From Candidatus Angelobacter sp. (lineage in GTDB: Bacteria; Acidobacteriota; Terriglobia; Terriglobales; Acidobacteriaceae): 48,579 bases of DNA. The stretch lies in NCBI GenBank assembly GCA_036270475.1, contig DATBCN010000055.1, forward strand, positions 1-48,579, read 5' to 3'. Made by a program: the position numbers and the translations under genes. Shown piece after piece: positions 1,935-35,943 of this stretch. Position 1 is the first letter of the stretch; every line of letters starts with the position of its first letter. The notes below the pieces were generated by a model. It made no database searches. It was not told where the DNA came from and saw only the letters and a list, made by a program, of their open reading frames with translations.

Positions 1935-1970
1935 GGTCCACGGGCGGACGCTCGAGTCCAGAAATGGATA
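1935..1970. promoter_or_regulatory. Dyad pair A: two TGTCCA-N4-TGGACA-like sites phased 20 bp apart (candidate enhancer/UAS)
   Basis: GGTCCAcgggCGGACG (1935-1950) and AGTCCAgaaaTGGATA (1955-1970). The half-site core, 4-nt spacer and 20-bp phasing match pairs B, C and D. The centre of the proximal site lies 83 bp upstream of the GG of the -24 element at 2045. Confidence 0.5.
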
Positions 1971-2042: not shown

Positions 2043-2058
2043 CTGGCCAGAGAGATGC
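2043..2058 (+). promoter_or_regulatory. Candidate sigma-54 (-24/-12) promoter of ADOP permease 1
   Basis: CTGGCCAGAGAGATGC has GG at 2045-2046 and GC at 2057-2058. This is the canonical 12-nt GG-to-GC register of TGGCAC-N5-TTGC. It lies 44 nt upstream of the 2102 start. Confidence 0.5.
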
Positions 2059-4647: not shown

Positions 4648-6117
4648 TTATTTTAACCGAGTGTATTTCAGATCAGCCTTGATGCCACTTTTGGGCTTCC
4701 CGCCGGCAGTAGTTTGCTGACCCAAAACCACGCACGCCGGAATCTTGATCTGTACTTCGCATCCTGCAGTGTCCGTTCTGTTCTGGATCGTCAATCTTCC
4801 GCCGTGCGCCTCAATGATCTGACGGCAAAGCACAAGGCCAATTCCGGTGCCGGTTTCCTTGGTGGTGTAGAAAGGCACAAAGAGATTTGAAGCGTCAAGC
4901 AGGCCCACGCCCCGGTCGCGCACCCAAAGCTCCAGATCATTCCCCGCGACACTCCAACTCATGCTGACGGCAGGCCCATCGTTAAAGGCGGGCATTCTCT
5001 CAATTGGATATTTTGTGATGACCGATTCAGTCCCATTCTTGGCGAGATTGATGAGCACCTGCTCAAGCTGGTCCGGGTCTACATTGATTGCGATATCAGG
5101 GCTGGGCAGCACCGTGACTGCGAGCCTTGCTTCCAGGCCGCTCACCCGCTCAGCCATATTTTTCAGGTCGATTGGGCGGCGCGTGGGTGGCGGCAGCTTG
5201 GATAGCTGGGCATAGCTTTGCAGAAAACGATTCAGCGCTTCCGCACGCGTGCCAATTACGTCGAGCCCAAGATCAAAGTCCTGATGGACCCTTTCCGGCA
5301 GCACGTTCTGTGACAGAATTCTACGCAGAGTGCGGGCCACCGATTTGATGGGAGCCAGAGAATTGTTGATCTCATGACTCAGCACGCGCACCATGCGCTG
5401 CCACGCCAGCCTCTCTTCCGCGCGCAACGCTTCTGACGCTTCAGAGAGCATTACCAGGTGGTGTGGGACGCCATTTTGGCGGAAGTGCGTGCGCCGCACG
5501 ATCCACCGCCTTTCAATGCCATTGGTGAGACGGGAAATCGTTTGCGACGTTGGACCGCCAAGAAGGTCGGCAATGCCTAATTCCCTGGCGTCCTGGTCTG
5601 CCAGCTCCTCTTCCCTCTTGCCGAGGAAGGCCGCAGCGGCGCGATTAAATAGTTTCAGCTTCCCATCGAGAGAAAAGGCCAGGATCACGCCTTCGGCTTC
5701 CGCAAGGACTTTGCGCAGAAGATTTTCCGCTTCCATCGTTCCCAGGCGCTCTGACTCCAGGGCCTGAGCCAGGTTGTTTATCTCGATTGCCAGGTCGCCC
5801 AGCGCGTCGCCAGAGACCGCGCGAGTGGCGCGAAAGGAGAAGTCGTCTTCCTTGAGAGATGCAACCACATTGGAAAGCACGCGGACGGAATTGACCACGC
5901 GATTACGCGCGGCAAATCCCAGGCCGAACCACAATAGTACGGAAAATACAGTGCCTTCAATCTTGTGGTCGAGCGAATAAGAGTTGCTCCAAAGCAGAAC
6001 GAAGCCCAAAATGGCGCAGGGAAGCCCCGTGCCAAGTACAGAAAGAAGCAATCGTCGTTCAAACGGCAGTGAAAACCGCCGCTTACTATTTTTCTTTCTT
6101 GACTGCGGAAGGAACAT
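4648..6117 (-). CDS. Sensor histidine kinase (2 TM, HAMP/PAS-like, HisKA, HATPase_c), NtrB/AtoS-like
   Basis: 489 aa. The H-box is LSHEINNSLAPI, the N-box NLAKNGTES, and the G-boxes DRGVGL and TGTGIGL. It overlaps the 3' end of the upstream response regulator gene by 32 nt. Confidence 0.85.
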   Translation of the reverse strand: MFLPQSRKKNSKRRFSLPFERRLLLSVLGTGLPCAILGFVLLWSNSYSLDHKIEGTVFSVLLWFGLGFAARNRVVNSVRVLSNVVASLKEDDFSFRATRAVSGDALGDLAIEINNLAQALESERLGTMEAENLLRKVLAEAEGVILAFSLDGKLKLFNRAAAAFLGKREEELADQDARELGIADLLGGPTSQTISRLTNGIERRWIVRRTHFRQNGVPHHLVMLSEASEALRAEERLAWQRMVRVLSHEINNSLAPIKSVARTLRRILSQNVLPERVHQDFDLGLDVIGTRAEALNRFLQSYAQLSKLPPPTRRPIDLKNMAERVSGLEARLAVTVLPSPDIAINVDPDQLEQVLINLAKNGTESVITKYPIERMPAFNDGPAVSMSWSVAGNDLELWVRDRGVGLLDASNLFVPFYTTKETGTGIGLVLCRQIIEAHGGRLTIQNRTDTAGCEVQIKIPACVVLGQQTTAGGKPKSGIKADLKYTRLK

Positions 6118-7588
6118 AGAGGCCGTGTTTTTCCATTCGCCGGTAGAATGTTCCCCGGCTCAGTCCCAGCACCTCGGCTGCCTGGCTCACGTTTCCGTTA
6201 TAGCGGGCCAGTGCCTTGCCGATCAACTGTGCTTCCACTTCTTCCAGGCTCAATTCAGCGAGATTGGCGGTTCGGGCATTGCTGGCAGAGGGAAGGCCCA
6301 AATGGTTCACGTCAATCTTCTCATCACGGCACATCAGGACGGCGCGTTCAATCGTGTGGTCCAGCTCCCTGACGTTTCCCGGCCAGTAATACTCCAGCAG
6401 TTTTTCCATTGCTTCCGGTGTGAAGCCATCAACCTGCTTGGTGTAGCGCTGGGTATATTTGTGGAGGAAATGTGAGGAGAGCGCGGGTATGTCTTCCCGC
6501 CTTTCGCGTAGAGGAGGTAAGGGAATTTCCACCGTATTCAGCCGGAACAACAAGTCTTCGCGGAAGCTTCCGTCGGCGCATGCGGCCTTAAGATTGGCAT
6601 TGGTGGCGGAAATTACACGCACGCTGACCTTCTGCGTCCGCGATGACCCCACGCGCTCCATTTCGCCGGTTTCAAGCACGCGCAAAAGCCTTGCTTGCTG
6701 CCGCATGGGAACGTTGGCAATTTCATCCAGGAACAATGTCCCGCCGTCGGCCATTTCAAAACGGCCAATGCGATCTGTGCGCGCGTCAGTAAAGGCGCCT
6801 CTTACATGGCCAAACAGCTCGCTTTCAAAAGTGCCTTCAGGCAGGCCGCCGGTATTCACTGTGATCAGCGGTTTATCCGCGCGGCGTGAAACCGCGTGCA
6901 ACATCTGTGCGACAACTTCCTTGCCGCTGCCATGTTCGCCGGTAATTAAGACGCTGGCATCAGACGGGCCAATTTGTGCAATCGCTTCGCTGACTGGCCG
7001 CATCGCGGGCGCCTGGGCCACAAAGGTGGTGCGGCCCTGGTTCCGCATCAACTGGTTTTCAGCCAACAGCCGCTGCCCTTGCCGCAAGGCCCTGTACAGC
7101 TCGGCATGGACCGTAATAGTGGAAACGAGCCGTTCGTCATCCCATGGTTTCTGGACGAAATCGCGGGCGCCGCGGCGCACTGCCGCAACGGCCAGATCAA
7201 TGGTGCCCCAGGCAGTCATGACGACAATGGGCAACTGGTTGTCAATTTCTCTCACCCGGTCAAGCAGTTCAATGCCCTCCCTGCCTGAAGTGGTGTCACG
7301 CGCGTAATTCAGATCAAGCAGCACGGCGTCATATTCCCGCAATGCCAGTGACTCCAGCACCACCTGGGGTGAGCGTACGGTGTCCACTTCAAAATGATGC
7401 GATCTGAACAACAATTTCAGCGCATCCAGCACGGCTGGCTGGTCGTCAGCTATCAGGACCCGGTAAGGCTGCTCATTGATACGCATAAGGGTATCGGTGT
7501 TGTCGGAGAGGAACGTTACACCAGGCCTTGAAAAGAAGCCGGTTGCGTCCACGAGCGATGGCAGGAAGCTCTCTCTGGTTTCCATCAC
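6086..7588 (-). CDS. Sigma-54-dependent response regulator (REC + AAA+ + Fis-type HTH), NtrC family
   Basis: The receiver is YRVLIADDQ...LLDLNY. Walker A is GEHGSGKE, the GAFTGA variant is GAFTDA, and Walker B is LFLDEI. The C-terminal HTH is GNVSQAAEVLGLSRGTFYRRM. The GTG at 7588 overlaps the permease stop (GTGA). An ATG at 7585 has a GAGGG SD 7 nt upstream, and M35 (7486) is a further possible start. Confidence 0.9.
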   Translation of the reverse strand: MMETRESFLPSLVDATGFFSRPGVTFLSDNTDTLMRINEQPYRVLIADDQPAVLDALKLLFRSHHFEVDTVRSPQVVLESLALREYDAVLLDLNYARDTTSGREGIELLDRVREIDNQLPIVVMTAWGTIDLAVAAVRRGARDFVQKPWDDERLVSTITVHAELYRALRQGQRLLAENQLMRNQGRTTFVAQAPAMRPVSEAIAQIGPSDASVLITGEHGSGKEVVAQMLHAVSRRADKPLITVNTGGLPEGTFESELFGHVRGAFTDARTDRIGRFEMADGGTLFLDEIANVPMRQQARLLRVLETGEMERVGSSRTQKVSVRVISATNANLKAACADGSFREDLLFRLNTVEIPLPPLRERREDIPALSSHFLHKYTQRYTKQVDGFTPEAMEKLLEYYWPGNVRELDHTIERAVLMCRDEKIDVNHLGLPSASNARTANLAELSLEEVEAQLIGKALARYNGNVSQAAEVLGLSRGTFYRRMEKHGLYVPSAVKKEK

Positions 7589-10074
7589 TCGGCCCTCAGC
7601 ACTACCATGGGTTCAATTGCTGTTGCGCGTGCAGCGATTACCAGGCTGGTCAAGAAAGCAATTGTTACAAGAAGCAGGGCTGCGGTTGCAAGAATTCCTA
7701 TGGTAGCGTCGGGCGTATTATAAATTAACGTACCAAGGAATTTAGCCAGAAAAATACTGGCTGCCGAGCCAAGCAGGATGCCAATGGCCACCAGCCCAAC
7801 CCCCTGTTTTACGATCAAACCTATTACCTGCGGCCTTTTGGCCCCTACAGCTACTCTCATGGCGATCTCCCTGGTACGCAAAATTAGCTGATAACTCAAT
7901 ATTCCATACAAACCCACCGCGGTCAGCAGCAGGGCAAAGGCCCCAAAAGCGCCAATCAATGACACATAAAAACGCGGCCGGGCCAAGGAAGTTGACACAA
8001 CCTGGGTCAGAGGCCGCAAGGACACTATCGCCAGATCGCGGTCAGCCCCGGTCAAGGCATGACGGAGCGATTCATAAACGTTGGCATATCTGTCAGAGCG
8101 GACAACAATCGAGGTTGGAAACAACCGGTTCATGAACGCCGTAATCTGGTCCGGCGCCTGTTTGGGATCAATAAAGACGGTGGGCGGTGGAAGTTTTTCC
8201 AGTCCTGTCTGCCGGACATCGGCAACCACCCCAATGACTTCACGCGGAACATCAGAAAACTGGCTGCCCAATTCGCTTCCCATCGCCACCATTTTTCCGA
8301 GTGGTGATTGATTGGGCCACCATTGCCGCGCCAGCCCCTCGCTCACGATTGCTACTGGCTTGTTGCCGCGATCATCGCGGTCTGAAAAAAATCTTCCGGC
8401 AAGGAGTGGTATACGAAGAGTGCGAAAATAATTGGCACTGACAACTCGAAACTGGGATTCTCCATACGGGCTGCTGTCCTGGACATCGGCGGGATACATG
8501 GGTATGCCCAGCCCCTGTTCCAGCGGCAAGCCGTTGATGCTGGCGACCGACTCCACTCCGGGAACATCTTTTAGCTGGGCGATCACTCTGTCCAGGAGCT
8601 GCGCCGTGGCTGCGGTTGTTGTATAGCGATCAGGCGCCAGGGAAATCTGCCCCACGGAAACGTTGTGCGGGTCAAAGCCTGGCTGGACCGATTGCAGCTT
8701 TAAAAAGTTTTGCAACAATGAAGCGGTCCCCGCCAGCAGGAGTAACGTCAGGGAAGTCTGGGCTGTAACGAGCATCCGGCCAAGCCGCGTCTGCTGGATA
8801 CTGTGACTGCCGGTTTGGGCGGATTGACGGATCATATCGTTCAAACTAACGCGGGACATCCTGATGGCCGGCGTGAGCCCGGATAAAACCGCCGTTGCCA
8901 CGGAGATAGTCAACACAAACAGGAGCACGTGCATGTCCATCCTGATCGTGCCGCTGAGCGGCAAGTCCGCCGGCACAAACCAACTGATGAAGGGAATCAG
9001 CTCCTTGCCGGCAATACTGCCAATTACTCCGCCAGTTATGCAGATTAGGATTCCATCCATCAGGAAAGTCCGGATCAACCGCCGCCTGCTGGATCCCAAA
9101 GCCGCCCTGATGGCAAACTCGTGGCCGCGGGCGGCGCCGCGAACAGTGAGGCATAGAGCCAGATTGGTGCATGTAATCAAAAGGACGAATATGACTGCGC
9201 CAAATAAGGAGAGAATACTTTTACGGACGCCCGAAACGATAAAATCCTGCAACTGATCTGGCGCCAGAGAAATGTCATCTGCTATGGAACGCACTGGATA
9301 AGTAAGGCGATAGTCTGCCGTCGAGGCCAATTCCTGCCGGGCATCCTGGAGGCTGATTCCGTCTCTCAAGCGCGCAATGACACGATACTCGTTTCCCGCA
9401 TCGAGAGTGGCCGAACTCAAAGGGAGCGGCAGCCACAGGTCCGCATCCGGATATGACTGAAACCCTTTTTGCATAATGCCCACGATGGAGTAGGGTTCCC
9501 CATTGATGTGAATTTCGCTTCCTACTGCGGACGCATCCTTGTTGTAATCCTGTTCCCACAAACCATAGCTCAGGATCACCACCCGTGGTCCGCCAGCCTG
9601 TTCTTCGTTTGGACTGAATTCTCTGCCCAGCACGGGGGAGGAGCCAAGGGTGCGAAAGAATTCCAGGGAAACCTGTTGCGCTTGCTTATATTGTGGCGAT
9701 CCCATGGCCGCCACGTTTACACCTGCATTCACACCCGCGTTTACGCCATGGACCGCGGCAATATCTCTAAAGGAACGCGAGCGTTCTTTCAGCATGAAAA
9801 ATGCTGGCGCCGAAATGTCTCTGGTTAGCCGTCCCTGGGAATTGTGCCAGGTGATAATCACCAGCCGGTCAGGGCTTATATAAGGTAGAGGGCGCAATAG
9901 GGAAGCGTTGACGATGCTGAAAACGATGGTGTTCGCGGCGATTCCCAGAGCGAGAGTAATGATTCCCATAGCGGCAAAACCGGGCGTCTTTTGGAGCGAA
10001 CGCATGGAATAGGATATGTCTTGAAGAAGCGTTCGCATTACCCTTACCGGCCCTCCTCTCTGCTTCACAAACAA
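7585..10074 (-). CDS. MacB/FtsX-type ABC transporter permease, duplicated orphan (ADOP-like) family
   Basis: 829 aa. It has the same N-terminal signature as the 2102 gene (LLQDISYSMRSLQKTPGFAAMGIITLALGIAANTIVFSIVNA) and two FtsX-like TM blocks. It is the first gene of a permease-RR-HK minus-strand operon. Confidence 0.85.
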   Translation of the reverse strand: MFVKQRGGPVRVMRTLLQDISYSMRSLQKTPGFAAMGIITLALGIAANTIVFSIVNASLLRPLPYISPDRLVIITWHNSQGRLTRDISAPAFFMLKERSRSFRDIAAVHGVNAGVNAGVNVAAMGSPQYKQAQQVSLEFFRTLGSSPVLGREFSPNEEQAGGPRVVILSYGLWEQDYNKDASAVGSEIHINGEPYSIVGIMQKGFQSYPDADLWLPLPLSSATLDAGNEYRVIARLRDGISLQDARQELASTADYRLTYPVRSIADDISLAPDQLQDFIVSGVRKSILSLFGAVIFVLLITCTNLALCLTVRGAARGHEFAIRAALGSSRRRLIRTFLMDGILICITGGVIGSIAGKELIPFISWFVPADLPLSGTIRMDMHVLLFVLTISVATAVLSGLTPAIRMSRVSLNDMIRQSAQTGSHSIQQTRLGRMLVTAQTSLTLLLLAGTASLLQNFLKLQSVQPGFDPHNVSVGQISLAPDRYTTTAATAQLLDRVIAQLKDVPGVESVASINGLPLEQGLGIPMYPADVQDSSPYGESQFRVVSANYFRTLRIPLLAGRFFSDRDDRGNKPVAIVSEGLARQWWPNQSPLGKMVAMGSELGSQFSDVPREVIGVVADVRQTGLEKLPPPTVFIDPKQAPDQITAFMNRLFPTSIVVRSDRYANVYESLRHALTGADRDLAIVSLRPLTQVVSTSLARPRFYVSLIGAFGAFALLLTAVGLYGILSYQLILRTREIAMRVAVGAKRPQVIGLIVKQGVGLVAIGILLGSAASIFLAKFLGTLIYNTPDATIGILATAALLLVTIAFLTSLVIAARATAIEPMVVLRAE

Positions 10075-10159
10075 CCTACGCGGCCTGCAATTACTCCAGG
10101 CCGGGACCTAATCATAAAAAATCCTGTGAACAGCGGAGCACGTTCATAGTTCTTCCAGC

Positions 10160-10175
10160 GCATCTTGAGGGCCTT
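10160..10175 (-). promoter_or_regulatory. Weak candidate sigma-54 promoter for the permease-RR-HK operon
   Basis: The minus strand reads AAGGCCCTCAAGATGC. GG and GC are in the 12-nt register, and the GGCC-N6-ATGC pattern matches the candidates at 2043 and 10726. The T of TGGC is missing. The nearest dyad centre (10254.5) lies 82 bp upstream, the same geometry as at ADOP-1. Confidence 0.35.
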
Positions 10176-10246
10176 CCCTTTAAAAATCTAACTCCATTCG
10201 GTTTCAATTATTTGCAAGTCTATCAAGCAGTAAGTAGTCCGCATAT

Positions 10247-10282
10247 TGTCCATCCTTGGACACTAGTGTTCATCCGTGGACA
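10247..10282. promoter_or_regulatory. Dyad pair B: TGTCCA-N4-TGGACA sites phased 20 bp apart
   Basis: TGTCCAtcctTGGACA (10247-10262) is a perfect palindrome. TGTTCAtccgTGGACA (10267-10282) has one mismatch. Confidence 0.6.
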
Positions 10283-10431
10283 CCGAGAGACGAGGGATTT
10301 AATTCGTTAGCGGAAAAATGCATGAAAAAGAAACGAAAACAGCTTTCAATTGCTCAAAGCATCAGGTGAACCAGAAGACAAGATTCTTGGATATTGAAGC
10401 GGCTGACGAACTTAGCCGGGCATCAGCAAAT

Positions 10432-10467
10432 TGTTCATCTCTGGACAACTCTTTCCAGCGCTGGACA
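10432..10467. promoter_or_regulatory. Dyad pair C: TGTCCA-N4-TGGACA sites phased 20 bp apart
   Basis: TGTTCAtctcTGGACA (10432-10447) and TTTCCAgcgcTGGACA (10452-10467) each carry one mismatch in the left half. Confidence 0.6.
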
Positions 10468-10632
10468 CTTTAGCGTGACGATCACCTTCCCATTTCCATA
10501 AGCACACACAGGCAAGGGCAGCCTGAAATCTTTTTTACCGGCGCTAAAACTGTAATATTTTCATGGTCCAAAGGGCTGTTTCATGGTGGATCTGGCCGAG
10601 ACTAAGACTTTCTAATACTTCCAGTTGCAAGG

Positions 10633-10648
10633 GTGGCCGTTCATACGC
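10633..10648 (+). promoter_or_regulatory. Distal candidate sigma-54 promoter upstream of the lanthipeptide precursor
   Basis: GTGGCCGTTCATACGC has GG at 10635-10636 and GC at 10647-10648 in the 12-nt register. It shares the 9-mer TGGCCGTTC with the proximal candidate. The -12 element is poor (ACGC). Confidence 0.3.
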
Positions 10649-10725
10649 GGCTACTCTCAGGAGGCCGACCCTCCAGTCTCGGTAATCCAAGCCGTTTGCG
10701 CCAGAAAGGAATCACGAATACAGTT

Positions 10726-10741
10726 TTGGCCGTTCTCATGC
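10726..10741 (+). promoter_or_regulatory. Proximal candidate sigma-54 promoter of the lanthipeptide operon
   Basis: TTGGCCGTTCTCATGC has GG at 10728-10729 and GC at 10740-10741 in the 12-nt register. The predicted start lies about 44 nt before the precursor ATG at 10797. Confidence 0.5.
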
Positions 10742-10796
10742 TATTTAGCATGGGCGGGAACCCCCAACAAAATCTAAAAAAAGAGGAGACAAAACC

Positions 10797-10922
10797 ATGT
10801 CGAACGTACTGATGCTTCAGAGACTGCACTCCAACACCAGTTCTTCAGAATTCATGAACCTGTTTGGCAGCGCGGTAAGCACCGTTTGCCCCATTGGCGA
10901 TAGTCCGTTTCAGATGGAGTAG
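10797..10922 (+). CDS. Class III-type lanthipeptide precursor peptide (41 aa), not in the ORF track
   Basis: ATG 10797 is preceded by the SD GAGGAG (10783-10788, 8-nt spacing), and the stop is TAG 10920-10922. The product is MSNVLMLQRLHSNTSSSEFMNLFGSAVSTVCPIGDSPFQME. The leader carries VLMLQ, like the (I/V)L(D/E)LQ box of class III leaders. The core carries Ser-x2-Ser-x2-Cys (SAVSTVC). It lies 90 nt upstream of the synthetase gene. Confidence 0.65.
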   Translation: MSNVLMLQRLHSNTSSSEFMNLFGSAVSTVCPIGDSPFQME

Positions 10923-11012
10923 TGCTGACGGGGCTCTCTGTTGCGAAATGGGCGATCTAGTTCTGGCCGATTCCAACAGAGGGCCCAGGCAATTTAGTTT
11001 GAGGATAAAGAT

Positions 11013-13703
11013 ATGCGGAGCCGACCCAATCCGTTGTATCGCTTGGTAGATAAGGATTACCACGAGAACTTTGACGCCTATGCGCCACAGAAAATGGATT
11101 TTTGTGACCTGGTTTTCGCAGGTCTTCCTGCAGGATGGGGCATTCAGCGAAGAGGCATTTGGTTTCATTGTGGTTCGCCTCAAAACGCCATGCCCCAGCA
11201 AGGCTGGAAGATTCACGTTTCCGCAACGCCGGCGAATGCGCGTGATCTGCTGCAACGTGTGAGCTCTGTACTTTTTGACAGACGAGATACCGATTTCAAG
11301 TTTGCTCTCGACATGTCAACCCTGTTCCTGCTCAACGGCAAAAATTGGTCTCGGGGCGGATCAGGAAAATTTATCACCGTATATCCCCATGACAATTATC
11401 ACTTTCTTGACCTGATGGAGCAACTCTATCGAGTCACTGAAGGGCAGCGTGGTCCATATATCCTTTCTGACCATCGTTATAAAGACAGCAACGTTCTGTT
11501 CTTTCGTTTTGGAGGTATGCGCCTCTATGACGTGCTCAATGTAAAAGGAGAGCGCACCCCCATGCTCGTGGCCCCGGATGGCACAGAAGTTCCGGACCAG
11601 AGAACAGCATATCCAGTAACGCCATCATGGGAAAATCCTCCTCTGCCCCTGGGAGACCCGGCCACGCAGCAGGAATCCCAGGGAATGAAAGGTGGGCGTT
11701 ATCAGATTCAGGATGTGCTCGATTTTTCTAATGCCGGAGGAGTGTACAGGGCGATTGACCAGCAAACTGGCAAGAAGGTTGTGATCAAAGAAGCCCGCCC
11801 GTGCATCAATTCCACGTTCGATGGCTATGACGCTGTTGAGCTGCTCAAGAAAGAGCATCGTCTGCTCACCGTCCTGAAAGACACTGGCATTGCGCCCCAG
11901 CCGGTGGATCTCTTTAAGGAATGGGAACATTGGTTTCTGGTTGAAGAATTCATCGAAGGCGATTCCATGGGCGCGCACTCCGCGCAGCACAATGTGCTGC
12001 TAAGGACCAGGCCCAGACCGGAACAGTATGAAGAGTGGTATGCAACTTTTCGTTCCGTCTGCGTCAGCCTGGCAAGGATCATGGACGTGCTGCATGCCCA
12101 CCAAATCGTCTTTGCGGATCTCTCCATCAATAATCTTATTGTGCTCGCCGGCAAGGCGGAGTTGACGCTGATTGATTTTGAAGGAGCAAGCCAGATTGGG
12201 GTTGACCGCCCAAGTACGGTTTTTACACCGGGTTTTGTTTCAGAAAACCGGCTCGCCGGATCTAACGCCGCGTATGCGGATGACTATTATTCGGTTGGTG
12301 CAGTCCTGCTCGCGTATCTGTTTCCCATCAACTCTCTTTTTCATCTCAAGCCAAAAGCGAAGCGGGAAATATTGGCCACGATTCAGAGAGATGCAAAGCT
12401 TCCCAAGGCAATCGCTGATTTGCTGCTGGATTTGATGGACCAGGATCCTGCGCGGCGGCCAGTGCCTGCCAAAATGCTGGAAGTGCTGGCTTCAGAGCCG
12501 GTAATTGAAAAGCAAATTGTTCCAGTTCCATCTGAGCGAAATTTTGAACCATTGTTGAATGGCATCGTGGCGCATATTGAACAGGCTGCAACCTATGCAC
12601 GCCAGGACCGGCTATTTCCGGCTGATCCAAAAGTGTTTGCTACCAACCCTCTTAGCCTTGCCTATGGCGCGGCTGGAGTTGGATATGCGCTCACCGAAAT
12701 CAAAGGGACCCGCTCAGATGAGCTATTAGACTGGGTCCTCCGCCACAAGATTGCACCCCAAACTTATGCCCCCGGCTTATACGTGGGTATGGCAGGGATC
12801 GCACAATGCCTGCTGGAAATGGGCGCTGTAAAGGAAGCGGAAGAACTCTTCCAGCAGACATTTCGGCATCGTTTGCTGCATGACGCTCCCGGCATTTTTT
12901 ATGGGACCGCCGGTTGGGGCATGGCGAATCTCCGGTTCTTTCTGCAAACGGGCAATCAACTTTATTTGGATGAAGCAACCAAAGCCGGCAACCATCTGCT
13001 TGAGACGTGCCTACTGGCGCCTGCCGGCTGCTTCTGGGGCACGCCCAATGAGACGCCTCTTGGATTAGCGCATGGGGCCAGCGGCATCGCGGTTTTTTTA
13101 CTGTATCTCTACCTGGCTACCCGCAATGAGGTTTTTTTAGAAGCCGGACGCCGGGGACTGGAATTTGATCTCAGCTTTGCGGTGACAACCAAAGACGGCG
13201 GTCTGTCCTGGCGTCAAGCCACGCAAGGGCAGTCGCCGCTCTTTCCATACTGGCGATTTGGCAGCGCCGGTATCGGCATGGCTGTGCTGCGCTATGCCCG
13301 GGTCCTGCGCACGGAAAACTATCAATCAATCCTGGAAAAAATCTTTATCGATACTGACCGCAAATACGTGGTCCTTCCGGGAAAGTTCATTGGTCTGGCG
13401 GGAATCGGCGATTTCATGCTCGATATGCATCAGTTTACCGGTGAGGCCAGATACCTTGAATCCGCCATAAAAGCGGCTGAAGGCATTCAGAAATTCCGCG
13501 TCGAGAGACAACAAGGCATAGCGTTTCCCGGAGATATGCTTTCCCGGCTCTGTTGTGACTACGGCACAGGCAGCGCGGGAATTGGACTCTTTCTGAACCG
13601 TCTTCTGCGCCGGCGAAAGAGTGACTTCATGTTGGATTGCCTGTTAGAACAATCCGGACTGCTGCCATCGTTGCAGCAAATACAAGTATCGCAATCGGCG
13701 TGA
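11013..13703 (+). CDS. Class III (possibly IV) lanthipeptide synthetase: N-terminal phospho-Ser/Thr lyase, central Ser/Thr kinase, C-terminal LanC-like cyclase domain
   Basis: 896 aa. Lyase-domain marks are QGWKIHVS and GKFITVYP. Kinase marks are VVIKEARP (Lys), the FADLSINN catalytic loop and LIDFEG. The cyclase repeats are GLAHGASGIA, then WRFGSAGIG where zinc-type LanC has WCxG, then LCCDYGTGSAGIG. At least one zinc-ligand Cys is therefore absent, which is class III-like. Confidence 0.85.
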   Translation: MRSRPNPLYRLVDKDYHENFDAYAPQKMDFCDLVFAGLPAGWGIQRRGIWFHCGSPQNAMPQQGWKIHVSATPANARDLLQRVSSVLFDRRDTDFKFALDMSTLFLLNGKNWSRGGSGKFITVYPHDNYHFLDLMEQLYRVTEGQRGPYILSDHRYKDSNVLFFRFGGMRLYDVLNVKGERTPMLVAPDGTEVPDQRTAYPVTPSWENPPLPLGDPATQQESQGMKGGRYQIQDVLDFSNAGGVYRAIDQQTGKKVVIKEARPCINSTFDGYDAVELLKKEHRLLTVLKDTGIAPQPVDLFKEWEHWFLVEEFIEGDSMGAHSAQHNVLLRTRPRPEQYEEWYATFRSVCVSLARIMDVLHAHQIVFADLSINNLIVLAGKAELTLIDFEGASQIGVDRPSTVFTPGFVSENRLAGSNAAYADDYYSVGAVLLAYLFPINSLFHLKPKAKREILATIQRDAKLPKAIADLLLDLMDQDPARRPVPAKMLEVLASEPVIEKQIVPVPSERNFEPLLNGIVAHIEQAATYARQDRLFPADPKVFATNPLSLAYGAAGVGYALTEIKGTRSDELLDWVLRHKIAPQTYAPGLYVGMAGIAQCLLEMGAVKEAEELFQQTFRHRLLHDAPGIFYGTAGWGMANLRFFLQTGNQLYLDEATKAGNHLLETCLLAPAGCFWGTPNETPLGLAHGASGIAVFLLYLYLATRNEVFLEAGRRGLEFDLSFAVTTKDGGLSWRQATQGQSPLFPYWRFGSAGIGMAVLRYARVLRTENYQSILEKIFIDTDRKYVVLPGKFIGLAGIGDFMLDMHQFTGEARYLESAIKAAEGIQKFRVERQQGIAFPGDMLSRLCCDYGTGSAGIGLFLNRLLRRRKSDFMLDCLLEQSGLLPSLQQIQVSQSA

Positions 13704-15016
13704 TGCTCAAAATCGGAGGACCATTGGCTGAGAACGGCAATGACGAGAGCAATGGCGCCGTTGAAGAACGAGACGAACTAACTGGAGCGCTTGCAGACAT
13801 TTTCCTTAGGGTGCGTAAGAGCCTAATCGCCAGTGAGCCTGGCGGCGCTGCAAGTTCTGATGTTTCAGTTCAGGGTGGGGAAAGAATTTATGTCCCGGAA
13901 GGCCCACAACTCTATGACGGGACCTCAGGAATCGCGCTATTTTTGGCCGCCTACCACTACGCCACAAATAATCAGGACGCTCGCGATCTGGCACTGCGTT
14001 CCGCGGCGCGTCTGCGTTTCGCAATCAAGCAAAGTGCTACAGCGGCAAGCCTCGCCCGCCAGTCCGGCAATGGAACTGGGGGGCTGGCTGGCGTGGGATC
14101 TCTTCCGTACGCCTTTGTGCATCTTGCGGCTTGGTTGAAAGTGCCTGAATTTATTGATGCTGCTCGCGAAGTGGCCACCAATATCATGCCGGAACAGATC
14201 ATGGCGGAAGAACGCCTTGATGTTATGCGCGGCTGTGCGGGTACATTGCTGGCCCTTCTGTCCTTTATTGAAGAAGTGACCGCAATGGGCATGGACTGTG
14301 GCATCGCGCCGGACCTTGCCCTACTCTGCGGGCGGCGATTACTGGAAAAACGCATCTCGTATAATTCCGGTCCGCGGGCATGGTCGGCTGGGGATTCGCT
14401 TCCACTCTCAGGATTTGCCCATGGCGCGGCAGGCATTGCTTATGCCCTGGTCCGGCTCTTTCAATACACTGGACAGGAAGAATTTCGCGATGCTGCCATC
14501 GAAGGATTCGCTTTCGAACGTACTCTTTATATTCCGGAACTTCAAACCTGGTTCGATCCTCGCTGCAATCTGCCATTGAGCAAAGCTTCGTGGTGCGAGG
14601 GTGCGCCCGGAGTGGCGCTGGGTATTTTGGGCAGCATGATCGCAATTGATTCACATGCCTTACGCCATGATCTTGAACAAGCGCTCAGCATTACCCGCAT
14701 GCTTCCTGAAGGGCCAGTCGACCATTTATGTTGCGGCAATTTTGGCAGAGTTGAGATCATGAATATTGCGGGCAGCGTCCTGGGCCGGTTGCAGCTTACC
14801 GCGCACGCCCGCCAACTGGCCACGCAACTCCTGGCTCGCGCGGCCACTTCCGGCTTCCGCTTTCAACCCATTGATCATCAGCCCTCCTTACCTGACATGT
14901 CTGAAAATAATCCATCTCTATTTCTTGGGCTGGCTGGAGTGGGTTATACCTTGCTGCGGCTGAATTACCCTGATCTTTTTCCCTCAGTCCTGCTGCTGGA
15001 CACAATCGTCCTATAG
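13703..15016 (+). CDS. Stand-alone LanC-like lanthionine cyclase with a full zinc-ligand set
   Basis: ATG 13703 overlaps the LanKC stop (TGATG). The ORF track extends it to 13637. Motifs are SGFAHGAAGIAYAL (GxAHG), SWCEGAPGVALG (WCxG) and HLCCGNFG, which has Cys-Cys where NisC has Cys-His, as in three-Cys LanM cyclase domains. There are seven GxxG-type repeats. Confidence 0.8.
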   Translation: MLKIGGPLAENGNDESNGAVEERDELTGALADIFLRVRKSLIASEPGGAASSDVSVQGGERIYVPEGPQLYDGTSGIALFLAAYHYATNNQDARDLALRSAARLRFAIKQSATAASLARQSGNGTGGLAGVGSLPYAFVHLAAWLKVPEFIDAAREVATNIMPEQIMAEERLDVMRGCAGTLLALLSFIEEVTAMGMDCGIAPDLALLCGRRLLEKRISYNSGPRAWSAGDSLPLSGFAHGAAGIAYALVRLFQYTGQEEFRDAAIEGFAFERTLYIPELQTWFDPRCNLPLSKASWCEGAPGVALGILGSMIAIDSHALRHDLEQALSITRMLPEGPVDHLCCGNFGRVEIMNIAGSVLGRLQLTAHARQLATQLLARAATSGFRFQPIDHQPSLPDMSENNPSLFLGLAGVGYTLLRLNYPDLFPSVLLLDTIVL

Positions 15017-15076: not shown

Positions 15077-15112
15077 TGTCCGTGACCGGAATGGAGCGTC
15101 CAACGCTGGACA
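15077..15112. promoter_or_regulatory. Dyad pair D: TGTCCA-N4-TGGACA-like sites phased 20 bp apart
   Basis: TGTCCGtgacCGGAAT (15077-15092) has a weak right half. CGTCCAacgcTGGACA (15097-15112) has one mismatch. The proximal centre lies 60 bp upstream of the GG of the sigma-54 promoter at 15164. Confidence 0.5.
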
Positions 15113-15161: not shown

Positions 15162-15177
15162 TTGGCAACATTCTTGC
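15162..15177 (+). promoter_or_regulatory. Sigma-54 (-24/-12) promoter of the enhancer-binding-protein gene
   Basis: TTGGCAACATTCTTGC(A) is a near-consensus match to TGGCAC-N5-TTGCA with the correct register (GG 15164-15165, GC 15176-15177). It lies 96 nt upstream of ATG 15273. Confidence 0.7.
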
Positions 15178-15272
15178 ACATTCAATAAGCGAAAGTGAGT
15201 ACCAGACGGCCACCTGAAAAGTAGCAAGAAGCAGCCATCAGGTTTGCGAAATGCCGGAAACCAATATTCGCG

Positions 15273-16976
15273 ATGACGAAAACAGATGACCTCTTTTTTG
15301 CAGCCAAGAGATTGAGAGGAACGGTTATGGGCGCCATATACTTTTCTTGCGATCAGGAATCATTGTTCATGGGATTGTCAATATTGCTGCGCGGGATCTC
15401 TTATCCCAGCCAGGCGGGAGAAACCATTGCCTCATCGTTCGAATCGGCAGCTAGGGGGCTTGGCGCCGCCCGCGGTGGATTGTTTTTGGTTCGGCACCAC
15501 CCGTCCGCAACTCGTTTGGAAACGCTGTGTCATTATCAAATGAACCCACAACATATCCGTGCCATTGAGTACGGTACTGATTCTGAAGATGCTGCCACTA
15601 GCCGGATCTGGAAAATTTTCAGCCAATGGGATGCAGGAACAAGCTCCTGGAAGGCTGGACCAATCGAGAAGGCAGCACCCAACTTGTACGTCATTTGCAT
15701 TCCGATCATAGACCCGGTACTTGATTCACCCGTTGCTGTTTTGCATTTTGAAAAAGAGACTGAGAACAACCCAGAGTTTGAGGCGGTGGCAAAAGAGTGG
15801 ATCACTCCATACGCGCTTGCACTGGGGCAAATCCTGAACCTTGGCTTCTCATCCACACAGGTCGAGATCGAAAGCGATGGAAAAGCAATCGATATCAAAA
15901 CGCCCGAGAATGCTCCGGAGTTGATTGGTGTTTCGGTGCAGACCCAGGCCTTGCGCCAGGAGCTGCACGATATTCACATTCCCGCGGCAAGCGCCCCAGA
16001 TCCTGACCCGATTCTGATCCTGGGTGAAAAGGGAACGGGCAAGGACCTGATTACGCGATATATCTATGCCTACAGCACGCGCCGCAATCGGCCCTATGTG
16101 GCGGTGAATTGTGCGGAGATCACGGATGAACTGGCAAGCGCGCGTTTCTTTGGGCATAAAAAAGGCTCTTTTACCGGATCGCTGGCCAACGAGCCTGGGC
16201 TATTCAGAGCGGCCGACCACGGCGTGCTCTTTCTTGATGAGATAGGCGATCTCTCACTCAAAGCGCAGGGAACTTTACTGCGCGTGCTGGAGAACCGCAC
16301 TGTCGTCCCGCTTGGGGAAACCAGAGAACAGCGAATTGATGTGCAGGTGATTCTGGGGACCAACTGTGATCCAGACCGCGCTGTTGCCGAGGGACGTATG
16401 CGTCCTGATCTTCTTGATCGTTTTCGCACTCAGGCAATCCGGCTGGCCCCGTTACGCGAACGGCCATGGGACATTCCCGCGCTGGTCCGTCATTTCATCG
16501 CTTACAACGAGAAGCGCACCCAGAAAAAAATCCTCAGCCTCCACGCCGATGTGCTGAAGATGCTGGTCGGGTATTCCTGGCCGGGCAACGTGCGGGAGTT
16601 GGCAAGGATATGTTCCTTGCTGGTTACGCATGTGAAGTCTGGCAGCCCAATTGATGCAGCGCTGTTCAGCCGGGTCATTCCTAATATCGGGAAGGAAGAA
16701 TGGAACCCTAAGGCTGGCGCAATGCTCGTGGGGAACGTTCCTATGCGGGAAGCCCTGGAAACCTTTGGACGTGAACTGATTCTTGCTCGTCTGCGGCAGC
16801 ACAACTGGAACATCAAGTCAGCGCGCGAAAGCCTTGGCCTTCCCAAAACAACGTTTCATCGTTATACACGCGCCCTGGGAATCGCCGGTTCCGTTCGCGA
16901 CGAACTAGCAGGAATAGAACAGTTCCCATATCCGACAAAACCGTTTGCTGGCGGAGGAATTCCCGCACTCAGTTGA
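15273..16976 (+). CDS. Sigma-54-dependent transcriptional activator (N-terminal sensory domain, AAA+, C-terminal HTH); no receiver domain
   Basis: 567 aa. Walker A is GEKGTGKD, the GAFTGA variant is GSFTGS, and Walker B is LFLDEIGDL. WPGNVREL and the HTH NIKSARESLGLPKTTFHRY are present. The ~230-aa N-terminal region looks GAF-like (tentative). Confidence 0.85.
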   Translation: MTKTDDLFFAAKRLRGTVMGAIYFSCDQESLFMGLSILLRGISYPSQAGETIASSFESAARGLGAARGGLFLVRHHPSATRLETLCHYQMNPQHIRAIEYGTDSEDAATSRIWKIFSQWDAGTSSWKAGPIEKAAPNLYVICIPIIDPVLDSPVAVLHFEKETENNPEFEAVAKEWITPYALALGQILNLGFSSTQVEIESDGKAIDIKTPENAPELIGVSVQTQALRQELHDIHIPAASAPDPDPILILGEKGTGKDLITRYIYAYSTRRNRPYVAVNCAEITDELASARFFGHKKGSFTGSLANEPGLFRAADHGVLFLDEIGDLSLKAQGTLLRVLENRTVVPLGETREQRIDVQVILGTNCDPDRAVAEGRMRPDLLDRFRTQAIRLAPLRERPWDIPALVRHFIAYNEKRTQKKILSLHADVLKMLVGYSWPGNVRELARICSLLVTHVKSGSPIDAALFSRVIPNIGKEEWNPKAGAMLVGNVPMREALETFGRELILARLRQHNWNIKSARESLGLPKTTFHRYTRALGIAGSVRDELAGIEQFPYPTKPFAGGGIPALS

Positions 16977-24756: not shown

Positions 24757-24760
24757 TTTC

Positions 24761-35941: not shown

Positions 35942-35943
35942 GA

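What the first reader, a model, noticed from the sequence alone, without database searches (positions are those of the whole stretch)
10075..10796. Divergent 720-bp control region with two phased palindrome pairs and sigma-54-type promoters in both directions
Four copies of TGTCCA-N4-TGGACA lie between the ADOP permease operon (minus strand) and the lanthipeptide precursor (plus strand). They form two pairs, 10247-10262/10267-10282 and 10432-10447/10452-10467, each with exactly 20-bp centre-to-centre phasing. This is how NtrC-type enhancer-binding proteins usually bind. GG-N10-GC promoters in the correct -24/-12 register lie at 10726-10741 (TTGGCCGTTCTCATGC, about 44-nt leader to the precursor ATG) and at 10633-10648. 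A weaker one is on the minus strand at 10160-10175, 82 bp from the nearest dyad. Sigma-54/enhancer control of a lanthipeptide operon would be unusual. Such clusters are normally run by LuxR/SARP or two-component sigma-70 circuits.
Basis: partly seen in the sequence, partly recalled or inferred. Interest (0 to 1): 0.75.

Follow-up and report, generated by a model that had tools for sequence, protein, structure and literature searches.

The report
Sigma-54 enhancer region controlling a lanthipeptide operon
The gap between an exporter operon and a lanthipeptide (modified-peptide) operon in a soil acidobacterium is very probably a two-way genetic switch of a well-known type (sigma-54 promoters with enhancer sites), not previously reported for lanthipeptide genes in the literature I searched.

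Summary
Four 16-bp dyads (TGTCCA-N4-TGGACA; one perfect, three with one mismatch) form two pairs with 20-bp phasing. That is 5 sites in the window against 0.4 expected.

In 19 related Terriglobia loci (LanKC identity 54-90%), a GG-N10-GC promoter immediately precedes the precursor gene in 18. The dyad pairs are kept in all of them. In the 10 closest loci, pair 2 and this promoter are the best-conserved parts of the intergenic region (0.90-0.92 column identity against 0.5-0.6).

Each pair serves its own promoter at a kept distance:
- pair 1 to the ADOP promoter, about 100-105 bp
- pair 2 to the precursor promoter, about 290 bp

Two more pair-plus-promoter units precede the second activator gene (15077-15177) and the second ADOP gene (1935-2058).

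In an unrelated AT-rich lineage, the same dyad pair lies 55-56 bp from TGGCACG-N4-TTGT in 21 of 22 metagenome contigs, upstream of MacB/HlyD exporter genes.

The likely binder is the NtrC-type response regulator (6086-7588). This is an inference, not a demonstration.

Mechanistically this is a textbook sigma-54 regulon; the new element is its target, a class III lanthipeptide operon.

The parts
1935..1970 (.). Weak dyad pair 4 (GGTCCACGGGCGGACG / AGTCCAGAAATGGATA, 20-bp phasing). It is the upstream activator site for the second ADOP gene.
   Evidence: 3 and 2 mismatches. The half-sites are conserved in L023. The pair centre lies 104.5 bp from the -12 GC, the same geometry as pair 1.
2044..2058 (+). 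Sigma-54-type promoter P_ADOP2 (TGGCCAGAGAGATGC)
   Evidence: L023 has TGGCCCGCTAAATGC at the aligned position.
2102..4561 (+). ADOP2, a duplicated MacB_PCD+FtsX permease
   Evidence: Pfam. TIGR03434 scores 869.7 bits against a cut-off of 622.3.
4648..6117 (-). Sensor histidine kinase with two N-terminal membrane segments joined by a loop of about 10 residues
   Evidence: HisKA and HATPase_c domains. Hydropathy and sequence.
6086..7588 (-). NtrC-family response regulator / enhancer-binding protein (REC + sigma-54 AAA+ + Fis-type HTH; GAFTDA loop). Favoured binder of the dyads.
   Evidence: Pfam, sequence, alignment A3.
7585..10038 (-). ADOP1 permease, first gene of the leftward operon
   Evidence: TIGR03434 scores 745.5 bits against a cut-off of 622.3. 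The in-frame ATG at 10038 is read.
10127..10146 (-). Conserved leader element GAACGTGCTCCGCTGTTCA, just downstream of the predicted ADOP1 transcription start. Role unknown.
   Evidence: Kept in 12 loci while the flanks diverge.
10160..10175 (-). Sigma-54-type promoter P_ADOP1 (reads AGGCCCTCAAGATGC on the minus strand; GG at 10172-10173, GC at 10160-10161)
   Evidence: GG-N10-GC is kept in all loci. L003, L034, L002 and L023 have a better TGGC.
10247..10282 (.). Dyad pair 1, the upstream activator site for P_ADOP1
   Evidence: Its centre lies 100.5-104.5 bp from the -12 GC in 4 loci, even where about 500 bp is inserted between the pairs.
10432..10467 (.). Dyad pair 2, the upstream activator site for the precursor promoter
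   Evidence: 26 of 36 columns are invariant in 10 loci, with mean identity 0.90. Its centre lies 288.5-295.5 bp from the -12 GC.
10607..10630 (.). Moderately conserved block CTTTCTAATACTTCCAGTTGCAA, about 110-130 bp upstream of the P_lan -12 element. Role unknown: a DNA-bending site or a site for the second activator.
   Evidence: Mean identity 0.79 against about 0.6 in the flanks.
10726..10741 (+). Sigma-54-type promoter P_lan (TTGGCCGTTCTCATGC; GG at 10728-10729, GC at 10740-10741). Predicted start near 10752-10754.
   Evidence: 16 of 26 columns are invariant, with mean identity 0.92. 18 of the 19 orthologous upstream regions have TGGC-N8-TGC ahead of the precursor (the divergent promoters are shown). 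No sigma-70-like promoter was found.
10797..10922 (+). Class III lanthipeptide precursor (41 aa; LMLQ leader motif; SAVSTVC core)
   Evidence: Translation. Conserved in the orthologous loci.
10931..10985 (+). Conserved stem-loop between the precursor gene and LanKC
   Evidence: -35.6 kcal/mol. The alifold stem is kept with compensatory changes in L002 and L023.
11013..13703 (+). Class III lanthionine synthetase LanKC
   Evidence: RamC_N + Pkinase + LANC_like domains. NF038151 scores 767.8 bits against a cut-off of 575.
13703..15016 (+). Stand-alone LanC-like cyclase. Its start overlaps the LanKC stop (TGATG).
   Evidence: LANC_like domain; sequence.
15077..15112 (.). Dyad pair 3 (TGTCCGTGACCGGAAT / CGTCCAACGCTGGACA), the upstream activator site for the second activator gene
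   Evidence: Conserved in L001-L003. Its centre lies 81.5-83.5 bp from the -12 GC.
15163..15178 (+). Near-consensus sigma-54 promoter P_bEBP2 (TGGCAACATTCTTGCA)
   Evidence: Conserved in L001-L003.
15273..16976 (+). Second enhancer-binding protein (bEBP2): an orphan 216-aa N-terminal domain, an AAA+ domain with a GSFTGS loop, and a weak Fis-type HTH
   Evidence: Pfam, sequence. The N-terminal domain has only 4 homologues.

Best explanation
The 758-bp region is a divergent sigma-54-dependent control region. It belongs to a small regulon with four promoters in this window.

Each promoter is a -24/-12 (GG-N10-GC) element. Each is preceded by a pair of 16-bp dyads (consensus TGTCCA-N4-TGGACA) whose centres are 20 bp apart, so both dyads face the same side of the helix.

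Proposed mechanism:
1. The dyads are binding sites for dimers of an NtrC-family enhancer-binding protein. The most likely candidate is the response regulator at 6086-7588, which is encoded in the leftward ADOP1-regulator-kinase operon.
2. The adjacent histidine kinase phosphorylates the regulator.
3. The regulator assembles into an AAA+ ring on a dyad pair and loops to sigma-54 RNA polymerase held in a closed complex at the promoter.
4. ATP hydrolysis opens the promoter.

Promoter assignments:
- Pair 1 drives the ADOP1-regulator-kinase operon (positive autoregulation).
- Pair 2 drives precursor-LanKC-LanC.
- Pair 3 drives the second activator gene.
- Pair 4 drives ADOP2.

The kinase has almost no extracellular loop. 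The signal is therefore probably sensed in or through the membrane, perhaps via the ADOP permeases. This would couple lanthipeptide synthesis to export or immunity.

Shown here: the motifs, their enrichment, their conservation, their geometry and their gene associations.
Inferred: transcription starts, which protein binds the dyads, the signal, and the role of the second activator.
For: Enrichment:
- 5 sites against 0.4 expected, all in two intergenic regions.

Conservation:
- In 10 close loci, pair 2 and P_lan have 0.90 and 0.92 mean column identity. The surrounding intergenic DNA has 0.51-0.62 and the precursor coding sequence 0.86.
- 18 of 19 distinct orthologous upstream regions (LanKC 54-90% identical) carry TGGC-N8-TGC(A/T) ahead of the precursor. 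The divergent ones are closer to consensus, for example TGGCAACCATTTTGCA.

Geometry:
- Pair-to-promoter distances are kept at 100.5-104.5, 288.5-295.5 and 81.5-83.5 bp. This holds even with a roughly 500-bp insertion between pairs 1 and 2 in L002.
- P_bEBP2 is near-consensus and conserved together with its pair. P_ADOP2 and its pair are conserved in L023.

Promoter type:
- No sigma-70-like promoter lies in 9900-11100.

Independent lineage:
- An exact-pattern scan of metagenomes for the dyad pair returned 47 loci.
- 21 of 22 AT-rich loci have TGGCACG-N4-TTGT 55-56 bp away, upstream of MacB-type ATPase, HlyD and duplicated FtsX permease genes.

For the response regulator as binder:
- Dyad pairs and sigma-54 promoters accompany ADOP-regulator-kinase in L045 and L025, where no bEBP2 gene is seen.
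- L018, from the AT-rich group, has a regulator-kinase pair next to a dyad pair. Its regulator shares the GAFTDA loop and the SRG-x-x-YRR recognition helix. bEBP2 differs there (PKTTFHRYTRA).

Protein domains.
Against: - There is no transcription-start, binding or expression evidence.
- rpoN was not seen. It is not in the window, and the rest of the genome could not be searched.
- The -24 elements in this window are off-consensus: TGGCCG at P_lan and AGGCCC at P_ADOP1.
- The regulator's sigma-54 contact loop is GAFTDA rather than GAFTGA.
- Pair 2 is unusually far from its promoter (about 290 bp), and that distance varies by 7 bp among close loci, so helical phase is not strictly kept.
- bEBP2 also has an HTH. 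It could bind the same dyads or some of them.
- L045 and L025 are short contigs, so bEBP2 could lie outside them.
Confidence: 0.8

Rival explanations
1. The architecture is the same, but the dyad-binding activator is the second enhancer-binding protein (15273-16976). Alternatively it is a mixed oligomer of both proteins, rather than the response regulator alone.
For: - bEBP2 has a C-terminal Fis-type HTH (weak HTH_8 hit, E = 0.0011). Its motif LGLPKTTFHRY resembles the regulator's LGLSRGTFYRR.
- Its own gene carries a dyad pair and a sigma-54 promoter, which would fit autoregulation.
- The dyads fit TGT-N10-ACA, the consensus used by NifA, which like bEBP2 lacks a receiver domain (from established knowledge).
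- In the clade that has bEBP2, pair 2 lies about 290 bp from P_lan. In L025, which shows no bEBP2, it lies 106 bp away.
Against: - L045, L025 and the AT-rich loci have dyad pairs and sigma-54 promoters with a regulator-kinase pair nearby and no bEBP2 homologue detected.
- The bEBP2 N-terminal domain has only 4 homologues in 5.8 billion proteins, whereas the dyad is widespread.
- Its recognition helix differs at several positions from the one shared by the regulators of both lineages.
- Its GSFTGS loop is further from consensus.
Confidence: 0.2
2. The circuit is not self-induction by the cell's own lanthipeptide. It is an envelope-stress or foreign-peptide response. The kinase and the ADOP permeases detect antimicrobial peptides from competitors, and the lanthipeptide operon is switched on as a counter-attack together with the exporters.
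For: - In the AT-rich lineage, and in L045, the same dyad and sigma-54 module controls only MacB/HlyD/FtsX exporter operons, with no lanthipeptide genes.
- This suggests that exporter control is the ancestral role.
- PMC12316311 links predicted sigma-54 promoters to antimicrobial-peptide-type FtsX permeases.
Against: - Nothing in the sequence identifies the signal.
- Tight synteny of regulator, kinase and ADOP genes with precursor and LanKC across 19 loci fits a dedicated producer circuit equally well.
Confidence: 0.3
3. The dyads are operators for a conventional repressor or activator, the genes are read from sigma-70-type promoters, and the GG-N10-GC matches are coincidental.
For: - The loose pattern TGGC-N8-TGC is not enriched in the window (19 against 14.9 expected).
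- The -24 boxes in the window are imperfect.
Against: - No sigma-70-like promoter was found.
- The GG and GC dinucleotides and their spacing are kept in 18 of 19 orthologous upstream regions while flanking DNA diverges.
- TGGCACG-N4-TTGT lies at a fixed 55-56 bp from the same dyads in 21 of 22 independent loci.
- Two sigma-54 activator genes lie in the cluster.
Confidence: 0.04

Closest known systems
NtrC enhancer at glnAp2 (enteric bacteria) and NtrC-family two-component activators in general
   Same: - Tandem dyad sites for dimers of a REC-AAA+-HTH regulator.
- The sites lie upstream of a -24/-12 promoter and act by looping and ATP-driven promoter opening.
- The regulator is positively autoregulated.
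   Different: - A different dyad (TGTCCA-N4-TGGACA against TGCACC-N5-GGTGCA).
- 20-bp phasing between the sites.
- The targets are exporter and lanthipeptide genes, not nitrogen assimilation genes.
- The regulator reaches no NCBIfam equivalog cut-off.
NifA upstream activator sequence TGT-N10-ACA and GlrR/QseF sites TGTC-N10-GACA (from established knowledge)
   Same: The 16-bp dyads here formally satisfy TGT-N10-ACA and share the TGTC/GACA outer bases.
   Different: - The inner bases (CCA/TGG) are also conserved here.
- The GlrR sites are 18 bp long.
- NifA has a GAF domain and no receiver domain.
- The proteins are not orthologous.
Sigma-54/enhancer-binding-protein control of natural-product genes in Myxococcus xanthus (PMC7910581; also PMC3665592)
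   Same: Sigma-54 promoters and enhancer-binding proteins directly control biosynthetic gene clusters.
   Different: - Those cases are polyketide and non-ribosomal peptide genes.
- No lanthipeptide or other ribosomal peptide is mentioned.
- A different phylum and different activators.
NisRK / SpaRK-type two-component control of lantibiotic operons (from established knowledge)
   Same: A kinase-regulator pair encoded next to the lanthipeptide genes. It controls the precursor promoter and a transport or immunity operon from a shared intergenic region.
   Different: - Those regulators are OmpR-family proteins acting at sigma-70 promoters in Firmicutes.
- Here the regulator is an AAA+ activator acting at sigma-54 promoters in an acidobacterium.
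- The lanthipeptide here is class III.
BceRS-BceAB peptide-antibiotic sensing modules of Firmicutes (from established knowledge)
   Same: - A histidine kinase with two membrane segments and a minimal loop.
- It is co-encoded and co-regulated with FtsX-family permeases that have large extracytoplasmic domains.
   Different: - No cognate ABC ATPase is in the window (the ADOP permeases are 'orphan').
- The regulator is NtrC-type, not OmpR-type.
- Sensing through the permease is pure inference here.
Predicted sigma-54 regulation of COG0577 FtsX-like permeases (PMC12316311)
   Same: Sigma-54 promoters upstream of antimicrobial-peptide-type FtsX permease genes. This matches the ADOP promoters here and the AT-rich metagenome loci.
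   Different: - That study does not mention Acidobacteria.
- It did not link these promoters to lanthipeptide genes ('lanthi' occurs 0 times).

Membership tests
Sigma-54-dependent promoter | GG and GC dinucleotides separated by 10 bp (-24/-12 elements) | tested here: met
   P_lan, P_ADOP1, P_bEBP2 and P_ADOP2 all meet this. It is kept in the orthologous loci.
Sigma-54-dependent promoter | Transcription start about 11-13 nt downstream of the GC, and dependence on rpoN | not testable with these tools
   No transcript data are available.
Sigma-54-dependent promoter | No competing sigma-70 -35/-10 promoter | tested here: met
   0 sigma-70-like sites in 9900-11100, against 1.2 expected. The TTGGCA...TATTTA spacing of 10 bp is too short, by inspection.
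Bacterial enhancer-binding protein (NtrC family) | Sigma-54 interaction AAA+ domain plus a C-terminal Fis-type HTH | tested here: met
   Regulator: PF00158 at 9e-63 and HTH_8 at 2e-15. bEBP2: PF00158 at 2e-49, but HTH_8 only at 0.0011, below the cut-off.
Bacterial enhancer-binding protein (NtrC family) | GAFTGA sigma-54 contact loop | tested here: inconclusive
   The regulator has GAFTDA and bEBP2 has GSFTGS. The F-T pair is kept in both. GAFTDA is shared by the L018 regulator.
Enhancer (upstream activator sequence) for an NtrC-type activator | Dyad-symmetric sites, usually in tandem, about 80-300 bp upstream of the promoter and conserved together with it | tested here: met
Enhancer (upstream activator sequence) for an NtrC-type activator | Bound by the activator, and required for activation | not testable with these tools
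   This needs EMSA or footprinting and reporter mutagenesis.
Class III lanthipeptide gene cluster | LanKC synthetase (lyase-kinase-cyclase without zinc ligands) | tested here: met
   NF038151 scores 767.8 bits against a cut-off of 575. The class IV model falls below its cut-off. No WCxG or CHG motif is present in the cyclase domain.
Class III lanthipeptide gene cluster | Precursor with an LxLQ-type leader motif and a Ser/Ser/Cys core | tested here: met
   The precursor is MSNVLMLQRL...SAVSTVC. The motif is kept in divergent loci, for example ILKLQ, VLKLQ and VLDLQ. The family consensus itself is taken from established knowledge.
ADOP family duplicated permease | Match to TIGR03434 above the cut-off, with duplicated MacB_PCD+FtsX domains | tested here: met
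   745.5 and 869.7 bits against a cut-off of 622.3. Two stretches of each Pfam domain are matched.
Bce-like peptide-sensing module | Intramembrane-sensing kinase (two membrane helices, minimal loop) | tested here: inconclusive
   One segment (residues 22-44) passes the hydropathy threshold. The second (about 55-72) was identified by eye only. The loop is about 10 residues.
Bce-like peptide-sensing module | OmpR-family regulator and a BceA-type ATPase partner | tested here: not met
   The regulator is NtrC-type. No ABC ATPase gene was found among the cluster genes scanned between 2102 and 19132. So this locus may work like a Bce module but is not a member of that family.

The most novel reading that the evidence does not exclude
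The locus is a sigma-54 version of a lantibiotic self-induction and immunity circuit.
- A loop-less histidine kinase senses the cell's own class III lanthipeptide through the ADOP permeases (Bce-like flux sensing).
- The phosphorylated regulator turns on exporters, its own operon, the biosynthetic operon and a second, orphan-domain activator.
- That second activator then co-activates the distant precursor promoter, forming a feed-forward loop through the conserved block at 10607-10630.

In addition, the TGTCCA-N4-TGGACA pair, sigma-54 promoter and MacB/FtsX-exporter unit would be an ancient peptide-sensing module shared between Acidobacteriota and a second, AT-rich lineage. That lineage is probably Bacteroidota.
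Probability: 0.25. Interest if true: 0.7.

Novelty: new member of a known kind. Interest (0 to 1): 0.48.

Why it matters
Lanthipeptide clusters from uncultured Acidobacteria are usually silent when moved to standard hosts.

If the precursor promoter is sigma-54-dependent, expression will need three things: sigma-54, the cognate activator in an active form (phosphomimetic or receiver-deleted), and the dyad pair. That is a concrete and testable recipe.

The finding also provides:
- a defined DNA motif for an uncharacterised subfamily of NtrC-type regulators
- an extension of the recently predicted link between sigma-54 and FtsX-type permeases to Acidobacteria, and to a ribosomal peptide pathway
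- a simple signature (phased dyad pair plus a -24/-12 promoter) for finding other members of the regulon in metagenomes

Mechanistically nothing departs from the textbook NtrC model.

Tried and rejected
The GC is lost in L001 and L003, no column is invariant, and mean identity is 0.62, the same as background. Rejected.
- ORF 10318-10473 (51 aa) between the pairs. The region aligns poorly, with mean identity 0.51. Not a gene.
- Terminator-like hairpin at 10509-10525. Not conserved.
- Rfam scan of 9000-16000. Only a sub-threshold PrrB/RsmZ hit (17.9 bits against a gathering score of 44; E = 0.84).
- Sigma-70 promoter scan. None found.
- IHF consensus WATCAANNNNTTR. Inspection of the regions between the pairs and their promoters found no clean match.
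- Distant LanKC loci L004-L006 (34% identity). No activator gene within 8 kb and no dyads. The circuit is therefore specific to this clade and is not a general feature of class III clusters.
- N-terminal domain of bEBP2. No Pfam family and only 4 homologues, so its signal could not be inferred.
- NCBIfam. The regulator reaches no equivalog cut-off.
- Literature searches for sigma-54 together with lanthipeptide, lantibiotic or RiPP. None of the listed papers links the two; the one opened (PMC10663231) does not.
Full report
**Observation**

- TGTCCATCCTTGGACA at 10247-10262
- TGTTCATCCGTGGACA at 10267-10282
- TGTTCATCTCTGGACA at 10432-10447
- TTTCCAGCGCTGGACA at 10452-10467

One is a perfect TGTCCA-N4-TGGACA and the other three differ at one position. 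Both pairs have exactly 20-bp phasing.

With one mismatch allowed, the window holds 5 sites (10 strand-hits). Dinucleotide shuffles give 0.80 +/- 1.06 strand-hits, and none of 100 shuffles reached 10. The fifth site, 15097-15112, is also intergenic.

The three GG-N10-GC motifs exist as described. The loose pattern TGGC-N8-TGC is not enriched by itself (19 against 14.9 expected), so their reality has to be judged by other means.

**Gene context**

Pfam and NCBIfam give this gene order:

| Coordinates | Strand | Gene |
|---|---|---|
| 2102-4561 | + | ADOP2 (TIGR03434) |
| 4648-6117 | - | histidine kinase |
| 6086-7588 | - | NtrC-type response regulator (REC, sigma-54 AAA+ domain, Fis-type HTH) |
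| 7585-10038 | - | ADOP1 |
| 10039-10796 | | intergenic region |
| 10797-10922 | + | 41-aa precursor |
| 11013-13703 | + | LanKC |
| 13703-15016 | + | stand-alone LanC |
| 15273-16976 | + | second sigma-54 activator (bEBP2) |

- The precursor has an LMLQ leader motif and an SAVSTVC core.
- LanKC is class III: NF038151 scores 767.8 bits against a cut-off of 575.
- The LanC start overlaps the LanKC stop.
- bEBP2 has an orphan N-terminal domain.
- ADOP1 most likely starts at ATG 10038, not TTG 10074, so the intergenic region is 758 bp.

**Related loci**

A scan of GTDB genomes with LanKC gave three syntenic Terriglobia/Acidobacteriaceae loci, L001-L003, at 81-90% identity. It also gave three distant loci at 34% identity.

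An exact-pattern scan of metagenome contigs with the dyad pair (TGTYCA-N4-TGGACA-N4-TKTYCA-N4-TGGACA) gave 47 loci. By my own estimate, 21 fixed and 3 two-fold positions should give fewer than one chance hit, even in 10^12-10^13 bases.

About 19 of these loci are soil contigs with the same gene order. Together with L001-L003, this yields 19 distinct upstream regions besides the window, with LanKC identity from 54% to 90%.

**Phylogenetic footprints**

The table gives mean column identity in a 10-locus alignment.

| Region | Mean identity | Invariant columns |
|---|---|---|
| Pair 2 | 0.90 | 26 of 36 |
| P_lan (10725-10750) | 0.92 | 16 of 26 |
| Precursor coding sequence | 0.86 | |
| Rest of the intergenic DNA | 0.51-0.62 | |

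I reject it.
- 18 of the 19 other upstream regions carry TGGC-N8-TGC(A/T) ahead of the precursor; L033 has TGGCATTCGTGTTGC instead.
- In the divergent loci, the promoter is closer to consensus. Examples are TGGCAACCATTTTGCA in L020, TGGCAGCTTTCTTGCT in L025 and TGGCCACATAGTTGCA in L031.
- In those loci it is followed 50-80 nt later by a ribosome-binding site and a precursor with the same leader motif.
- The minus-strand promoter keeps GG-N10-GC in every locus. It is a better TGGC in L002, L003, L023 and L034.
- No sigma-70-like promoter and no Rfam family is present.

**Geometry**

Each pair is tied to one promoter. The distance from the pair centre to the -12 GC is:
- 100.5-104.5 bp for pair 1 to P_ADOP1
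- 288.5-295.5 bp for pair 2 to P_lan

This holds across four loci, even though L002 has about 500 bp inserted between the pairs; L023 shares that insertion. The region is therefore two back-to-back enhancer-promoter units, not one shared enhancer.

**More units of the same kind**

- Upstream of bEBP2 there is a third pair, TGTCCGTGACCGGAAT / CGTCCAACGCTGGACA at 15077-15112, again with 20-bp phasing.
- It lies 81.5 bp from a near-consensus promoter, TGGCAACATTCTTGCA (15163-15178). Both are conserved in L001-L003.
- Upstream of ADOP2 there is a weaker pair at 1935-1970, 104.5 bp from TGGCCAGAGAGATGC (2044-2058). It is conserved in L023.
- The window therefore holds a four-promoter regulon.

**Independent lineage**

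The other metagenome hits are AT-rich contigs (38-45% G+C) from a few samples.
- In 21 of 22 of them, the same dyad pair lies exactly 55-56 bp from TGGCACG-N4-TTGT (TTGC in one contig, L039).
- The genes downstream encode MacB/LolD-type ABC ATPases, 414-aa HlyD proteins and 790-aa duplicated MacB_PCD+FtsX permeases.
- L018 also carries a response-regulator activator (40% identical to the one here) and a kinase next to such a pair.

This is strong, independent evidence that the phased TGTCCA-N4-TGGACA pair is an enhancer for sigma-54 promoters. It also suggests that control of exporters is its older role.

**Which protein binds**

I favour the response regulator, for three reasons.
- L045 has two dyad pairs and a sigma-54-type promoter (105 bp from the proximal pair). 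These lie ahead of ADOP-regulator-kinase and next to a NusG-like/HlyD/MacB operon. It has no LanKC and no bEBP2.
- L025 has the regulator, the kinase, ADOP, the precursor and LanKC, with dyads, but no LanC or bEBP2 downstream.
- The regulators of both lineages share the GAFTDA loop and the helix SRG(T/A)(F/L)YRR. bEBP2 has PKTTFHRYTRA instead.

The N-terminal domain of bEBP2 has no Pfam match and only four homologues in 5.8 billion proteins. It is therefore a clade-specific addition.

This remains an inference. The contigs are short, and bEBP2 does have an HTH.

**Proposed mechanism**

1. The kinase has two membrane segments joined by a loop of about 10 residues. It probably senses within the membrane or through a partner, and the co-regulated ADOP permeases are the obvious candidates.
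2. The kinase phosphorylates the regulator.
3. Regulator dimers occupy the two dyads on one face of the helix and assemble the AAA+ ring.
4. The ring loops to sigma-54 polymerase and opens the promoter.
5. The outputs are both ADOP permeases, the regulator and kinase themselves, the precursor-LanKC-LanC operon, and bEBP2.

Open questions:
- Whether the signal is the cell's own peptide or foreign peptides.
- What bEBP2 does. A conserved block at 10607-10630 lies about 110-130 bp from P_lan. In addition, the pair-to-promoter distance is much shorter in L025 (106 bp) and L020 (128 bp). Both points are compatible with a second activator site in the bEBP2-containing clade, but this is speculation.

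**Comparison with what is known**

- The architecture is that of NtrC-type enhancers.
- The dyad formally fits the NifA TGT-N10-ACA rule and resembles GlrR sites. However, the regulator reaches no NCBIfam equivalog cut-off.
- Sigma-54 control of polyketide and non-ribosomal peptide genes has been shown in Myxococcus (PMC7910581). That paper does not mention lanthipeptides.
- Sigma-54-dependent regulators are enriched in Acidobacteriota biosynthetic clusters (PMC13642348).
- Sigma-54 promoters upstream of FtsX-like permeases were predicted in 2025 for other phyla (PMC12316311).
- I found no paper describing a sigma-54 promoter or enhancer for a lanthipeptide operon.
- The circuit's logic resembles NisRK-type and Bce-type modules. 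It fails their membership tests: the regulator is NtrC-type, the promoters are sigma-54-type, and there is no ATPase partner.
- The distant class III loci L004-L006 have no activator nearby, so this control is specific to the clade.

**Verdict**

- The system is a new member of a well-known kind of control system.
- The new elements are its target (a class III lanthipeptide operon), a defined motif for an uncharacterised regulator subfamily, and the practical consequence for expressing such clusters.
- Interest is moderate.

Noticed in passing
window 10931-10985: A stable stem-loop (GGGGCUCUCUG...CAGAGGGCCC, -35.6 kcal/mol) lies directly after the precursor stop codon. It is kept in all 10 close loci, with compensatory changes in L002 and L023 (CCUCCUG/CAGGAGG). 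It is probably the usual hairpin between precursor and synthetase genes that sets their transcript ratio.
   Followed up: partly
window 10737-10752: The palindrome CATGCTATTTAGCATG (core TGCTAT(T/C)TAGCA) overlaps the -12 element and the predicted start of the precursor promoter. The core is kept in all 10 close loci, with one substitution in L034. It is absent from the more divergent loci examined (L020, L025, L031, L038). It may be an operator for another factor.
   Followed up: partly
window 10127-10146 (minus-strand leader of ADOP1): The element GAACG(T)GCTCCGCTGTTCAC is conserved in 12 loci, just downstream of the predicted ADOP1 transcription start. It contains outward-facing TGAACA/GTTCA half-sites. 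As RNA it would form only a 4-5 bp stem. Its role is unknown.
   Followed up: partly
L007-L014, L018, L026, L027, L032, L035-L037, L039, L044, L046-L048, L051, L052: - About 22 AT-rich metagenome contigs carry the same dyad pair, 55-56 bp from TGGCACG-N4-TTGT.
- The pairs lie upstream of paralogous MacB-ATPase, HlyD and duplicated-FtsX exporter operons.
- The promoter-to-ATG distance is often exactly 59 nt.
- The lineage is probably Bacteroidota, judged only from the DUF4221 and CarbopepD_reg_2 domains and the low G+C.
   Followed up: partly
L025 10202-11274; L045 1820-3069: In two related soil contigs, dyad pairs lie upstream of a NusG paralogue. In L045 it is followed by HlyD and a MacB-like gene. 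A specialised antiterminator therefore seems to belong to the same regulon in some relatives.
   Followed up: partly
window 13703-15016: - The stand-alone LanC-like cyclase resembles the C-terminal domain of class II LanM (256 bits) and has a Cys-Cys-Gly zinc motif (HLCCGNFG).
- It sits in a class III cluster whose LanKC lacks zinc ligands.
- Its start overlaps the LanKC stop (TGATG).
- This enzyme combination is unusual for class III.
   Followed up: partly
window 15273-15920: The N-terminal 216 residues of the second activator match no Pfam family. They have only 4 homologues among 5.8 billion clustered proteins, so this is an orphan sensor domain.
   Followed up: yes
L002 about 6790-7440 (also L023): About 500 bp is inserted between dyad pairs 1 and 2 relative to the window. 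It holds two overlapping 137-aa ORFs on the minus strand. Its content was not examined.
   Followed up: no
window 19096-36500: Downstream of the lanthipeptide cluster lie a LuxR-type two-component pair (19096-21561) and what looks like a second biosynthetic cluster. That cluster includes two ketosynthases, an HMG-CoA reductase, a sigma-70 region-4/MarR-like protein, an amine oxidase and an acyltransferase.
   Followed up: no
window 10452-10467 and equivalents in all loci: The departures from the dyad consensus are themselves conserved. The promoter-proximal dyad of pair 2 is TTTCCA-N4-TGGACA in nearly all the loci examined. The inner half-sites of pair 3 are degenerate in all four loci compared. 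This suggests tuned affinities rather than decay.
   Followed up: partly
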